Assembly (NCBI GenBank): GCA_000092065.1
Contig: CP000601.1
Reading direction: 5' to 3' (one strand)
Origin: Ostreococcus lucimarinus
Lineage: Eukaryota
DNA: 64,000 bases
The translations under genes and the position numbers were made by a program. Below are positions 13,937 to 17,238 of this stretch, in pieces. The notes beneath the pieces were generated by a model. The model saw nothing but the letters and a program-made list of their open reading frames with translations, was not told the origin of the DNA and searched no databases. Position 1 is the first letter of the stretch, and every line of letters starts with the position of its first letter.

Positions 13937-14162
13937 GGTAGCGACGCACCGAGACGCGCGTGCGAAGCGCGGTCTGCGGTCACTCGTCGGGCGAGCAGAA
14001 GAGCGGCTGCGAAGTCGGCGAGCTCTCGTTGGCTCCTCGCACCGCTCGAATCGTGCGAAGAATGATGAGTACTAATGAGAAAGGTGGTAATAAAAAGTCC
14101 TAAACTCGACCGCGTCGCTCGCCCGCCGGCACGACGACGACGTGGTCTTCAAAACGCATTCG

Positions 14163-15134
14163 CTAGCGAGGAGGCGCTGGGGAGTTTTCCAAAATCACTC
14201 CGCCGACCTCGACGCGAGAACCACGCCCTGTGATTATCGTGTTTCTAACATTGTCTGCTATTCTGGGATCCAGTCCTGCACCATCCGCGCACGTCACTCG
14301 ACTCGATCGCGTCTCTTCCGATCCAGCCGTTCTGAAATCTCCCCAATACTCCTTGTCCCCCGGTCCGTCCGCGGAGCCAAAGTTGACGTACACCGGACTG
14401 TCAAACAACTCTGGATACGTCGCCAGTAGCTCTCTCTCGGCGTAACGCAACGTATCTAACACCAACGGTAATTTTTGACGAAACACGACCGAACGAAGGG
14501 GCGCCGCCCATCGTATCCACCAAGCCTCCTTCGCGCTCACCTGACAAAACACGTGCAAGCCGTCCTCGCGCCACTCCGCGAGCACCTCGTCTCTGAGCAA
14601 TCTCGTGTACCATATCGACGTTTGATCGTCGTTGAACGCGTCGCCTACCGTGAGCGTCAAATTCCTCGTCACATCGTTGTGCGTCAGCGTGTAACGCCGC
14701 TGCAATAAAGACTCCGGTTCCACCCGCGTCGAGCTCGCGTCGAACGCCACCGACACTCTGTCCGGGTCAAACTTCAAGGCGTCGAAAACCGCGTTCGTCG
14801 TCGTCTGCGCGCGCGCGATCGCCGTCGGTCAGTGTCACGATTCCATCGAGTCGCACTCGCGCCTTTCTCGCGCGTCGCTCGCGGTTTTAGACGTCGCCGT
14901 CCCCCCCCATCGCGCGAAAACCGCGCCTCGGACGTCCCGTCCCGTCCCGATCGACGCGCGTCGCGCGCGCGTCGCGTCGCGTCGGTCGCCGCGCACCTTC
15001 CCCCGTCCGCGCCCCTTCGCCGGCCGTCCTCGCGCGCCGGGTCCCGGTCGCCGTCCGCTCGCGTCGCGCGTCGACGTCGACGTCGACGCCCCGCTCGCGC
15101 GCGCGCGCGTCGCGAGCGCCCTATCCAGCGCCAT
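14163..15134 (-). CDS. SGR: STAY-GREEN (SGR) magnesium dechelatase. The conserved core is 14163..14757. A probable transit-peptide exon lies at 14857..15134 (or ends at 14839), with an intron of about 99 nt.
   Basis: The core RRYTLTHNDVTRNLTLTVG ... RLLRDEVLAEWRE ... LHVFCQVS ... KLPLVLDTLRYAERELLATYPELFDSPVYVNFGS is co-linear with Arabidopsis SGR1 (RTYTLTHSDITAKLTLAIS ... RLYRDEVVAEWKK ... ELPVVLKAFVHGD). The core ORF has no in-frame ATG and lacks a presequence. An ATG-initiated, same-frame ORF (14835..15134, MALDRALATRARASGASTSTS...) lies just upstream and is separated only by two TGA codons. A GTGCGA donor and a CAG acceptor in matching phase would join the two ORFs. Confidence 0.7.
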
Positions 15135-15372
15135 GGCGTCGACGGCGCGCGCGTCGCGTTCGCGCGTCGACGACGCGCGCGCGTCGACGACGCTCGCGAC
15201 TCGTCGACGACGACGTCGACGACGACGACGCGCGTCGCTGTGCCGGGCGTCGTCGCGTCGTCGGATCGTCGTCTCGTCGTCGTCCCGCGGCGTCCCGCGC
15301 GTCCGCCTCGAGCGCGAGCGCGAGCGGTCGCGAGCGGTCGCGATCGGACGATGCGACCGATGGTGCGATTGA

Positions 15373-17238
15373 ATGGATACACACGGACCACACCGATCCC
15401 ATCGACGAGTCTCGACTCGAGAACGAGTCCCTCGACGCCCGACGCGCCCCGACCGACGTCACGCGATCCGATCCGCGCGCGGCGTCGTCGCGTCGGCGTC
15501 GTCGCGTCGGCTCGTCACAGCGCGCGTCCGGGACAGCGAGCGCTCGAACGCCCGAACGCGCGAAGCGCCCGAGACGGATCCGAACGCCACGAATCCGCGC
15601 CGAGCGATCGAGCCCGCCATGCGCACCGTCGCGCGCGCGTTCGCGACGACGACGACGTCGAGCGCGAGGTGTGATTATCGCCGTCGAGCGACGACGACGC
15701 GCGCGACGACGAGCGCGGTGCGCGCGGACGCGCGGCGCGCGCGATCGGGGAGGTATGCGATCGTTCCGCGATCGATCGAGGGCGAAGGGAACGCCGCGGT
15801 CGTCGAAAGAAGCGTCGAGGGCGAGGAGGGGGAGAAGATGATGTCCCTGGAGGCGAGACGCGAGGCGCTGAGGTTGCCGCGCCCGGACGTCGCGGCGCCG
15901 GGGATGGAGGATCCGTGGAACGATGAGAAGTGGCAAAAGGTGAAGTGGACGGTGTTTCGAGACGTGGCGTACGACCTCGGACCGTTCTTTGAGAAGCATC
16001 CGGGCGGGAACTGGTTGTTGAACCTCGCCATCGGTCGCGACTGCACGGCGCTCATGGAATCCTATCACTTGCGACCAGAGGTGGCGACGGCGCGCTTCAG
16101 GATGTTACCCAAGCTCGAGGGGTTCCCGGTCGACGCCGTGGCGAAGTCACCGAGACCGAACGATTCGCCGCTGTACAACAACATCCGCAATCGCGTTCGC
16201 GAGGAACTTTTCCCGGAAGAAGGGAAGAACAAACACAGAATGGGTGGCGACCACGCGACGATAACGATTTTGTCTTTCGCCGCGTTTGCGTACGGTGTGT
16301 ACGCCACCATCCCGGGCTTTCTCTCGGGTTGCCTCCTTGGCTTAGCTGGTGCGTGGATCGGGCTCACGATTCAGCATTGCGCCAATCACGGGGCGATGTC
16401 ACCGTCGCCCGCCGTCAACGGCGTCCTCGGTTTGACGAACGATCTCATCGGCGGCTCGTCTTTGATGTGGCGATACCACCACCAGGTGAGCCACCACATT
16501 CACTGCAACGACAATGCTATGGATCAAGACGTGTACACCGCCATGCCTCTCTTGCGTTTCGACGCTCGTCGTCCCAAGGCGTGGTACCACCGCTTCCAGC
16601 ACTGGTACATGTTCTTGGCCTTTCCGTTGTTGCAGGTGGCGTTCCAAGTCGGCGACATCGTCGGTTTGTTCACTCGCGATACCGAAGGCGCAAAGCTCCA
16701 CGGGGCGACCACTTGGGAACTTGCCACCGTAGTTATCGGCAAGTTTGTGCACTTCGGTTTGTTGGCTGCACCTTTGATGAGCCACGCGGCTTCCGCCGTC
16801 GTCGCCGGCATCGTCGGTTTCATGGCGTGCCAAGGAGTCGTCCTCGCGTGTACGTTCGCGGTGAGTCACAACGTGCCCGAGGCCAAACTCCCTGAAGATA
16901 CCGGTGGAGAGGCGTGGGAAAGAGATTGGGGCGTGCAGCAGTTGGTGACTAGCGCTGACTGGGGTGGAAAGATTGGAAACTTTTTCACCGGCGGTCTGAA
17001 CTTGCAAGTCGAGCATCACCTGTTCCCGGCGATTTGCTTTGTGCACTACCCCGCGATCGCGAAAATTGTCGCGGAAGAAGCGGCGAAGATGGGCATTCCT
17101 TACTCGTCATACAGAACACTTCCCGGCATTTTCGTCGCGTTCTGGAAATTCGTCAGAGACATGGGCACGGCGGAGCAAATCGACGACGTTTTACTTCCGA
17201 AGTTCGCGAACCCGCAACTTTCGCCAGCCATCAATTAG
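15373..17238 (+). CDS. Cytochrome b5-fused front-end fatty acid desaturase with a long N-terminal organellar-type extension.
   Basis: The cyt b5 motif EKHPGGNWL, then the His boxes HCANHGA, HHQVSHHIHCN and QVEHHLFP (Q in the third box is diagnostic of front-end delta-4/5/6/8 desaturases). The first ATG is at 15373 and a transit-peptide-like alternative (MRTVARAFATTTTSS) is at 15619. Confidence 0.85.
   Translation: MDTHGPHRSHRRVSTRERVPRRPTRPDRRHAIRSARGVVASASSRRLVTARVRDSERSNARTREAPETDPNATNPRRAIEPAMRTVARAFATTTTSSARCDYRRRATTTRATTSAVRADARRARSGRYAIVPRSIEGEGNAAVVERSVEGEEGEKMMSLEARREALRLPRPDVAAPGMEDPWNDEKWQKVKWTVFRDVAYDLGPFFEKHPGGNWLLNLAIGRDCTALMESYHLRPEVATARFRMLPKLEGFPVDAVAKSPRPNDSPLYNNIRNRVREELFPEEGKNKHRMGGDHATITILSFAAFAYGVYATIPGFLSGCLLGLAGAWIGLTIQHCANHGAMSPSPAVNGVLGLTNDLIGGSSLMWRYHHQVSHHIHCNDNAMDQDVYTAMPLLRFDARRPKAWYHRFQHWYMFLAFPLLQVAFQVGDIVGLFTRDTEGAKLHGATTWELATVVIGKFVHFGLLAAPLMSHAASAVVAGIVGFMACQGVVLACTFAVSHNVPEAKLPEDTGGEAWERDWGVQQLVTSADWGGKIGNFFTGGLNLQVEHHLFPAICFVHYPAIAKIVAEEAAKMGIPYSSYRTLPGIFVAFWKFVRDMGTAEQIDDVLLPKFANPQLSPAIN

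What the first reader, a model, noticed from the sequence alone, without database searches (positions are those of the whole stretch)
14163..15134. The stay-green Mg-dechelatase core has no start codon; a probable transit-peptide exon lies 80-100 nt upstream
The SGR-homologous ORF begins exactly where the conserved mature domain begins and has no in-frame ATG. An ATG-initiated ORF in the same frame (MALDRALATRARASGASTSTSTRDASGRRPGPGARG..., a classic R/A/S/T chloroplast-type presequence) ends only two stop codons upstream. A GTGCGA donor in phase 2 and a ...CCGGACAG acceptor in phase 2 would fuse the two. The gene sits head-to-head with the cytochrome b5-fused front-end desaturase, which also carries a long presequence. 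If that desaturase is plastidial, the pair share one promoter spacer.
Basis: partly seen in the sequence, partly recalled or inferred. Interest (0 to 1): 0.5.

Follow-up and report, generated by a model that had tools for sequence, protein, structure and literature searches.

The report
Two-exon stay-green gene, already annotated

Summary
The minus-strand Staygreen ORF (14828..14163) contains no Met codon, and a same-frame ATG ORF (15134..14835) ends two stop codons upstream. The idea of an upstream exon carrying the start codon and presequence is right, but the proposed splice sites (donor 14856, acceptor 14758, 99 nt) are wrong. They would delete the conserved NAVFDALKFDPDR start of the domain.

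The real structure is:
- exon 1: 15134..14997, 46 aa;
- intron: 14996..14805, 192 nt, AAG|GTGCGC ... CTGAC ... CAG|;
- exon 2: 14804..14163.

Four results support it.
- The resulting 259-aa protein is letter-for-letter XP_001420948.1/ABO99241.1 of Ostreococcus lucimarinus CCE9901.
- A public sequencing-run contig joins 14997 directly to 14804 at 100% identity.
- Six orthologous Ostreococcus loci keep a phase-0 donor, a branch motif and this acceptor, although the distance from ATG to core varies in all three phases.
- The UniRef protein of O. mediterraneus uses the same acceptor.

The catalytic aspartates of the solved bacterial homologue are conserved. The head-to-head neighbour is a chloroplast-type delta-4 fatty-acid desaturase. 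A related lineage has a different neighbour there, so a functional shared promoter is unsupported. This is routine, already annotated gene structure of low interest.

The parts
14997..15134 (-). Exon 1 coding part: ATG at 15134-15132 plus 46 codons (MALDRALATRARASGASTSTSTRDASGRRPGPGARGRPAKGRGRGK). This is the presumed organellar (chloroplast) targeting presequence.
   Evidence: It is the first in-frame ATG after an upstream stop. M(A)LDRA is conserved in 6 orthologous loci. It is part of the exact RefSeq protein XP_001420948.1. Net charge is +10 with 57% A/S/T/G, against -7 for the mature part.
14805..14996 (-). Single spliceosomal intron, 192 nt, phase 0.
   Evidence: Contig L008 joins window 14997 to 14804 at 100% identity. 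The RefSeq model lacks this stretch. Orthologous introns of 129-190 nt lie at the same place.
14991..14996 (-). 5' splice site, AAG|GTGCGC.
   Evidence: It is the only one of three phase-0 GT sites with a canonical context. A phase-0 RAG|GTGCG donor is conserved in L001, L002 and L003. O. mediterraneus uses a different phase-0 donor, GAG|GTGAGA, about 33 nt further 3', in place of its homologous AAG|GTGCAT site.
14828..14832 (-). Putative branch-point motif CTGAC (branch A at 14829, 24 nt before the last intron base). The second TGA 'stop' is part of it.
   Evidence: CT(G/A)AC is invariant at this position in the alignment of six loci (columns 371-376). Its function is inferred, not shown.
14805..14807 (-). 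3' splice site, CAG|.
   Evidence: It is the only AG between the stop codons and the conserved AVFD codons. A YAG lies 12 nt before AVFD in all six loci, and it is an in-frame TAG stop in L004-L007. The junction is confirmed by L008, by O. mediterraneus P0284, and by the spliced forms P0311 and P0305.
14163..14804 (-). Exon 2 coding part: 213 codons plus TAG (14165-14163). It holds the Staygreen domain and a genus-specific C-terminal tail ending in PPR.
   Evidence: Pfam PF12638, E = 4.3e-37. PDB 7y5y, E = 2.2e-25. The catalytic Asp pair is conserved.
14088..14162 (-). At least 75 nt of 3' untranslated region.
   Evidence: L008 continues collinearly at 100% identity to window 14088 and then diverges.
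14758..14856 (-). CCGGACAG). It is rejected: its 5' part lies inside the real intron and its 3' part is coding exon 2.
15135..15618 (.). Divergent spacer of 484 bp between the SGR ATG and the desaturase ATG. It must hold both 5' UTRs and both promoters.
   Evidence: The desaturase start MRTVARAF matches the 539/540-aa forms P0135 and P0136.
15619..17238 (+). Neighbouring gene: a cytochrome-b5-fused front-end desaturase of 539 aa, of the delta-4 (CrDelta4FAD) type, with an N-terminal extension of about 100 aa.
   Evidence: Pfam PF00173 plus PF00487. Named homologues are 'delta-4 desaturase' and 'fatty acyl delta4 desaturase' at 57-64% identity in Chlorophyceae. Its His boxes differ from the O. 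tauri plastidic delta-6 enzymes.

Best explanation
This is a two-exon nuclear gene of Ostreococcus lucimarinus encoding the precursor of the chlorophyll a Mg-dechelatase SGR. Transcription runs on the minus strand. A 192-nt GT-AG intron (14996..14805) is spliced out, joining a 138-nt first coding exon (ATG at 15134, 46 residues) in phase 0 to the 642-nt second exon. The 259-aa product has a basic, Ala/Ser/Thr/Gly/Arg-rich N-terminal presequence that ends about 4 residues before the conserved Staygreen domain. That presequence most likely directs import into the chloroplast and is then cleaved. The mature enzyme removes Mg2+ from chlorophyll a to give pheophytin a, using the conserved Asp pair (D90 and D118 in precursor numbering). 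Shown here: the exon and intron boundaries, the family membership and the conservation of the catalytic residues. Inferred: the targeting role of exon 1, the cleavage and the enzymatic activity.
For: (1) The spliced 259-aa sequence is an exact match to NCBI ABO99241.1/XP_001420948.1 and ABP01305.1/XP_001422946.1 of O. lucimarinus CCE9901, and to a UniRef 'Staygreen protein domain-containing protein'. (2) Logan contig L008 (run ERR9850558) joins window 15025..14997 directly to 14804..14088 at 100% identity. Its predicted protein P0130 reads ...RPAKGRGRGK|TTTNAVFD. (3) In six orthologous loci the conserved ATG is followed by a phase-0 donor, and a YAG lies 12 nt before the AVFD codons. The ATG-to-core distance mod 3 is 0, 2, 1, 1, 1, 0, so read-through is impossible in most loci, yet splicing restores the frame in all. 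(4) The UniRef protein of O. mediterraneus (A0A6U0E8P7, P0284) is identical to my spliced model of L007 and uses the same acceptor. Spliced forms P0311 and P0305 from other clades join at the same point. (5) Only one AG acceptor lies between the stop codons and the conserved domain, and only one of the three compatible donors has a consensus context. (6) Pfam Staygreen E = 4.3e-37 and PDB 7y5y E = 2.2e-25. R26, Y28, T29, H32, D34 and D62 of AbSGR-h (PMC8531759) align to R82, Y84, T85, H88, D90 and D118. (7) Exon 1 has net charge +10 and 22% Arg, against net -7 for the mature part. Only its first residues are conserved between species, as is typical of transit peptides.
Against: No RNA-seq data for this strain could be examined. 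The metadata of ERR9850558 (RNA or DNA) could not be checked, and L008 is chimeric at both ends. A 30-mer spanning the spliced junction had no hit in the JGI metagenome contigs. No targeting predictor (TargetP, PredAlgo) was available, so chloroplast cannot be separated from mitochondrial targeting by sequence here. Activity was not measured for any Mamiellales SGR. D114 of AbSGR-h, a structural residue, is Glu here.
Confidence: 0.92

Rival explanations
1. One reading: a 99-nt intron from the GTGCGA donor (14856) to the CCGGACAG acceptor (14758), giving a 290-aa precursor with a 93-residue presequence.
For: The join is arithmetically valid. Both sites are phase 2 and the product is an open frame. 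GTGCGA resembles the genus donor GTGCG.
Against: It deletes TTTNAVFDALKFDPDR, which is conserved across Mamiellales and includes the start of the Pfam domain. The donor is not conserved in L002. The 290-aa product is absent from the protein collection. L008 retains 14804..14758 as exon and lacks 14996..14857.
Confidence: 0.02
2. There is no upstream exon. Translation starts at a non-ATG codon inside the core ORF (for example TTG at 14777), giving a protein without a presequence, and the upstream ORF is non-coding.
For: Prokaryote-style gene callers make such calls in metagenomes, with GTG or TTG starts as in P0003, P0006 and the 204-aa ORF.
Against: Eukaryotic nuclear genes rarely use such starts. 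The upstream ATG, a phase-0 donor and the acceptor are conserved in six loci. Spliced products exist in three further clades and for this sequence itself. An SGR without a presequence could not reach chlorophyll in the plastid (established biology of SGR).
Confidence: 0.02
3. Exon 1 encodes a mitochondrial or dual-targeting peptide, or a non-cleaved basic extension, rather than a chloroplast transit peptide.
For: Green-algal chloroplast and mitochondrial presequences have similar composition. Here only composition was measured.
Against: The only known substrates of SGR are chlorophylls in thylakoid membranes, and characterised eukaryotic SGRs are plastid proteins (established knowledge; reviews PMC7511501 and PMC8531759). 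Bathycoccus and Micromonas homologues also carry long non-conserved N-terminal extensions.
Confidence: 0.06
4. SGR and the delta-4 desaturase form a functional divergent gene pair, co-regulated from one bidirectional promoter.
For: The two genes are head-to-head with 484 bp between their ATGs. The arrangement is kept in L001, L003 and L009. Both products are probably plastidial.
Against: In the L002 lineage, where the SGR core is 98% identical, the head-to-head partner is a zf-MYND gene, and similarity to the window stops at 15245. Divergent neighbours are common by chance in a genome this compact (my own knowledge). No expression data were available.
Confidence: 0.15

Closest known systems
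Ostreococcus lucimarinus CCE9901 predicted protein XP_001420948.1 / ABO99241.1 (also XP_001422946.1 / ABP01305.1)
   Same: It is identical over all 259 residues to the protein obtained by splicing 15134..14997 to 14804..14166. The gene and its exon structure are therefore already in GenBank/RefSeq.
   Different: Nothing differs in the sequence. The public name is only 'predicted protein' or 'Staygreen protein domain-containing protein', without a functional or targeting annotation.
Ostreococcus mediterraneus Staygreen protein, UniRef100_A0A6U0E8P7 (P0284, 275 aa)
   Same: It has the same two-exon plan, the same M-DRAL start, and the same acceptor immediately before VVTSAVFDALKFDP. The core is about 85% identical.
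   Different: Its donor lies 33 nt further 3' (GAG|GTGAGA after residue 59), although the AAG|GTGCAT site homologous to the one used in O. lucimarinus is also present. Its acceptor is TAG rather than CAG.
Bacterial SGR homologue AbSGR-h (Anaerolineae), PDB 7y5y, characterised in PMC8531759
   Same: It has the same Staygreen fold family (E = 2.2e-25). The catalytic D34 and D62, together with R26, Y28, T29, T31, H32, T36, W55, R58 and R95, are conserved.
   Different: The bacterial protein has 161 residues, no presequence, no intron and no C-terminal tail. D114 is Glu in the alga.
Land-plant SGR1/SGR2/SGRL and Chlamydomonas SGR (Mg-dechelatases of chlorophyll a breakdown and photosystem II turnover)
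   Same: They are nuclear-encoded Staygreen-domain proteins with an N-terminal plastid presequence. The conserved block begins at the same F-x4-F-x3-(K/R)-(L/V)-x-V motif (my recollection of the AtSGR1 sequence; family level supported).
   Different: The alga lacks the C-terminal Cys-rich motif of the plant SGR subfamily, with only one Cys after the domain, so in that respect it is more like SGRL and other algal forms. It has instead a Mamiellales-specific tail ending in (P)PR.

Membership tests
Staygreen / SGR Mg-dechelatase family (Pfam PF12638) | A full-length match to the Staygreen domain profile above the curated cut-off. | tested here: met
   The score is 127.6 bits against a cut-off of 27, E = 4.3e-37, covering profile positions 1-146 of 147.
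Staygreen / SGR Mg-dechelatase family (Pfam PF12638) | The two catalytic aspartates (D34 and D62 of AbSGR-h; D107 and D132 of AtSGRL) and the structural residues R26, Y28, T29 and H32. | tested here: met
   The phmmer alignment to PDB 7y5y, read against the mutagenesis table of PMC8531759, gives D90, D118, R82, Y84, T85 and H88, all conserved. D114 is replaced conservatively by Glu.
Staygreen / SGR Mg-dechelatase family (Pfam PF12638) | Mg2+ removal from chlorophyll a, yielding pheophytin a. | not testable with these tools
   This needs a recombinant-enzyme assay.
Nuclear-encoded plastid SGR of Viridiplantae | An N-terminal cleavable chloroplast transit peptide preceding the conserved domain. 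| tested here: inconclusive
   A non-conserved basic extension of 46-50 residues (net +10, 57% A/S/T/G) precedes the domain. Bathycoccus and Micromonas homologues also have extensions. No targeting predictor or localisation data were available.
Land-plant SGR subfamily (as opposed to SGRL) | A C-terminal cysteine-rich motif. This feature is recalled from the literature and was not checked in a paper here. | tested here: not met
   The tail after the domain (GDFRTAGSEETRSSRVTCADG...SPAPPR) has a single Cys. The protein is therefore not filed under the plant SGR1/2 subfamily, only under the wider family.
Canonical U2-type GT-AG spliceosomal intron | GT at the 5' end, AG at the 3' end, a branch-point motif 15-40 nt upstream of the AG, and removal in mature RNA. 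| tested here: met
   The intron reads GTGCGC ... CTGAC (24 nt upstream of its last base) ... CAG. It is precisely absent from contig L008 and from the RefSeq protein. The RNA origin of L008 is itself unverified.
CrDelta4FAD-type plastidial delta-4 front-end desaturase (the neighbouring gene) | An N-terminal cytochrome b5 fused to a desaturase with three His boxes, and closest named homologues that are delta-4 desaturases of Chlorophyceae. | tested here: met
   Pfam PF00173 plus PF00487. The sequence shows HCANH, HHQVSHH and QVEHH boxes. Named hits are 'delta-4 desaturase' and 'fatty acyl delta4 desaturase' at 57-64% identity. Regiospecificity and localisation were not tested.

The most novel reading that the evidence does not exclude
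The most novel reading not excluded has two parts. First, the intron sitting 4 codons before the conserved domain may mark how the presequence was attached to an enzyme core thought to be of bacterial origin, with the donor still 'sliding' between Ostreococcus species (a 33-nt shift in O. mediterraneus). Second, natural populations may carry a loss-of-function allele: contig L009 has a 290-nt deletion between two CGCGCGCGCGC repeats that removes most of exon 1 and the intron and puts the ATG out of frame.
Probability: 0.1. Interest if true: 0.3.

Novelty: already known. Interest (0 to 1): 0.08.

Why it matters
The result matters mainly for quality control. It shows that an 'ORF without a start codon' in this compact algal genome is explained by a small 5' exon, and that the public gene model is correct, whereas a plausible-looking nearby GT/AG pair is not. 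It adds comparative and contig-level support for an existing RefSeq model. It also gives the probable boundaries of the mature enzyme (from about residue 47) for anyone wishing to express a prasinophyte Mg-dechelatase. It opens no new biological question.

Tried and rejected
- Read-through of the two TGA codons, or a sequencing error: rejected, because orthologous loci place the ATG in all three phases relative to the core.
- Apparent 'ATG' starts of metagenomic homologues (MTNAVFD in P0003, MTSAVFD in P0006): these are GTG codons relabelled by prokaryotic gene callers, not real Met codons.
- The look-up of encoding contigs for the RefSeq protein P0121: no gene position on record, so chromosome and copy number could not be read.
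- Search for the spliced 30-mer in JGI metagenome contigs: 0 hits.
- Literature search for the O. lucimarinus chromosome 21/13 duplication returned only human-genetics papers, and the genome paper (PMC1863510) is not held.
- The MAFFT alignment A1 misaligned the donors of L001 and L003 because of indels, so donors were located by motif and phase instead.
- The neighbouring desaturase was first suspected to be one of the O. tauri plastidic delta-6 enzymes. This was rejected because its His boxes differ and its named homologues are delta-4 enzymes.
- Structure prediction was not run, because the sequence-level match to a solved homologue was already decisive.

Full report
**What is in the sequence.**

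The region is GC-rich (66% in 14001-16000). On the minus strand it reads as follows:
- an ATG ORF of 99 codons, 15134..14835 (MALDRALATRARASGAST...CDSMES);
- then TGA, CAC, TGA;
- then a 221-codon open frame, 14828..14166, ending at a TAG (14165-14163).

The long frame has no Met codon. Pfam Staygreen (PF12638) covers its residues 19-167, E = 4.3e-37. The upstream ORF has no Pfam match.

The neighbours are as follows:
- On the plus strand, from 15619, lies a cytochrome-b5/fatty-acid-desaturase fusion.
- Downstream of SGR on the minus strand lies a folylpolyglutamate-synthase-like gene.

The block reads ...AVFDALKFDPDRVSV in Ostreococcus-like sequences, ALFDPLKFDPDRVSV in the group at about 67% identity, and LLKFDPKR(V/C)SV in the group at about 55-65% identity. 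The genus assignment of the latter two groups (Bathycoccus, Micromonas) is my inference. Splicing to 14758 would delete TTTNAVFDALKFDPDR.

**Comparative evidence for the true sites.**

I fetched orthologous loci by exact protein look-up: L001 and L003 (about 85% protein identity), L002 (98% in the core, about 85% at DNA level) and L004-L007 (about 85%). In every locus:
- a conserved ATG opens M(A)LDRA...;
- a phase-0 donor RAG|GTG(C/A)(G/A) follows 138-177 nt later;
- a CT(G/A)AC motif lies about 25-30 nt before a YAG;
- that YAG sits exactly 12 nt before the AVFD codons.

In L004-L007 the YAG is an in-frame TAG stop.

The distance from the ATG to the core, modulo 3, is 0, 2, 1, 1, 1, 0 across the loci. 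A continuous reading frame is therefore impossible in most of them, while a phase-0/phase-0 intron restores the frame in all. The window's same-frame arrangement is thus a coincidence of a 192-nt (64 x 3) intron.

Within the window only one AG (exon 2 starting at 14804) lies between the stop codons and AVFD. Three phase-0 GTs are compatible with it, and only AAG|GTGCGC at 14996 has a consensus context.

**Direct evidence.**

- Splicing 15134..14997 to 14804..14166 gives a 259-aa protein that is an exact entry in NCBI (ABO99241.1/XP_001420948.1 and ABP01305.1/XP_001422946.1, 'predicted protein [Ostreococcus lucimarinus CCE9901]') and in UniRef ('Staygreen protein domain-containing protein'). 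This identifies the organism and shows that the model is already public.
- A member of the same 90% cluster, P0130, reads ...RPAKGRGRGK|TTTNAVFD. Its contig L008 (Logan assembly of run ERR9850558) matches window 15025..14997 and then 14806..14088 at 100% identity, a 2-nt AG overlap that places the join at 14997/14804. The intron is thus precisely absent. The contig is chimeric beyond these stretches, and I could not verify that the run is RNA.
- In O. mediterraneus the UniRef protein A0A6U0E8P7 (P0284) equals my spliced model of L007 with the same acceptor, but with a donor 33 nt further 3'.
- Two further clades show spliced forms (P0311, P0305) beside unspliced ORF calls (P0314, P0004), with the junction at the same point.

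**What the protein is.**

The only solved relative is PDB 7y5y, a 161-residue Staygreen-domain protein (E = 2.2e-25). Its numbering matches AbSGR-h of PMC8531759. In that study D34N and D62N abolish Mg-dechelatase activity without loss of solubility, and R26, Y28, T29 and D114 are structural. In the alignment these residues correspond to D90, D118, R82, Y84, T85 and E (conservative) of the algal precursor. H32, T31, T36, W55, R58 and R95 are also conserved.

The tail after the domain has one Cys only, so the Cys-rich motif of the land-plant SGR subfamily (my recollection) is absent.

**The presequence.**

Exon 1 has 12 Arg/Lys against 2 Asp/Glu (net +10) and is 57% Ala/Ser/Thr/Gly. The mature part has net charge -7. 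Between species only the first 5-7 residues and the general composition are kept. This pattern is typical of organellar presequences, and the related genera also carry long non-conserved N-terminal extensions.

Because the substrate is chlorophyll, chloroplast targeting is the reasonable inference. No predictor or localisation data were available, so this step is inferred.

**The neighbour and the 'shared promoter'.**

The desaturase most likely starts at 15619 (MRTVARAF, as in the 539/540-aa forms P0135 and P0136). That leaves 484 bp between the two ATGs.

Its His boxes (HCANH, HHQVSHH, QVEHH) differ from those reported for the O. tauri plastidic delta-6 desaturases and for the acyl-CoA delta-6 enzyme (bioRxiv 10.1101/2020.03.10.986216). 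Its named homologues are delta-4 desaturases, at 57-64% identity in Chlorophyceae. It is therefore probably the orthologue of the enzyme that paper lists as 'D4p, Ot13.2'. The same paper states that all but two O. tauri desaturases have a predicted chloroplast target peptide.

The head-to-head arrangement is kept in L001, L003 and L009. In L002, similarity to the window ends at 15245 and the divergent partner is a zf-MYND gene. Functional co-regulation is therefore unsupported, but it is not excluded.

**Verdict.**

The true structure is an ordinary two-exon gene that is already annotated, so interest is low.

Noticed in passing
L009:3150-3160, corresponding to window ~15096..14807: A Logan contig (SRR31183261, 11.7 kb, 99.4-99.9% identical to the window) lacks 290 nt between two CGCGCGCGCGC repeats. 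The deletion removes most of exon 1 and the whole intron and leaves the ATG out of frame with the SGR core. It may be a natural null allele or a PCR/assembly artefact in very GC-rich DNA.
   Followed up: partly
window 14163-15134 (the protein as a whole): The identical 259-aa protein has two independent GenBank/RefSeq accession pairs (ABO99241.1/XP_001420948.1 and ABP01305.1/XP_001422946.1) and is recorded on 2 contigs. This suggests the locus lies in a recent segmental duplication of the O. lucimarinus genome. I recall one being described for chromosome 21, but I could not verify it here.
   Followed up: partly
L002:1275-3660: In a lineage whose SGR core is 98% identical at protein level (about 85% DNA identity), the gene lying head-to-head with SGR is a zf-MYND protein instead of the desaturase. 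There is a rearrangement breakpoint inside the divergent spacer (window ~15245).
   Followed up: partly
L004:799-832 and L007:793-826: O. mediterraneus keeps the AAG|GTGCAT site homologous to the O. lucimarinus donor, but its UniRef protein corresponds to a second phase-0 donor, GAG|GTGAGA, 33 nt downstream. This is donor sliding that lengthens the presequence by 11 residues.
   Followed up: yes
window 14829-14831: The second in-frame TGA 'stop' that separates the two ORFs is part of the conserved CTGAC branch-point motif of the intron.
   Followed up: yes
window 14166-14330 (C-terminal tail of SGR): All Mamiellales-type homologues carry a tail beyond the Pfam domain that is variable in the middle but ends in a conserved (P)PR or similar R terminus. 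It has no counterpart in the bacterial structure 7y5y, and its function is unknown.
   Followed up: no
window 15619-15940: The delta-4-type desaturase has an N-terminal extension of about 100 residues, rich in Arg, Ala and Thr, before its cytochrome b5 domain. ORF callers variously start it at 15373 (621 aa) or 15619 (539 aa). The shorter form matches the related sequences.
   Followed up: partly
window 14835-15391, minus strand, other frame: The GC-rich spacer and exon 1 region are open in several frames on both strands (for example the 205-aa and 280-aa ORFs). These are compositional artefacts of CG-rich repeats, not genes.
   Followed up: no
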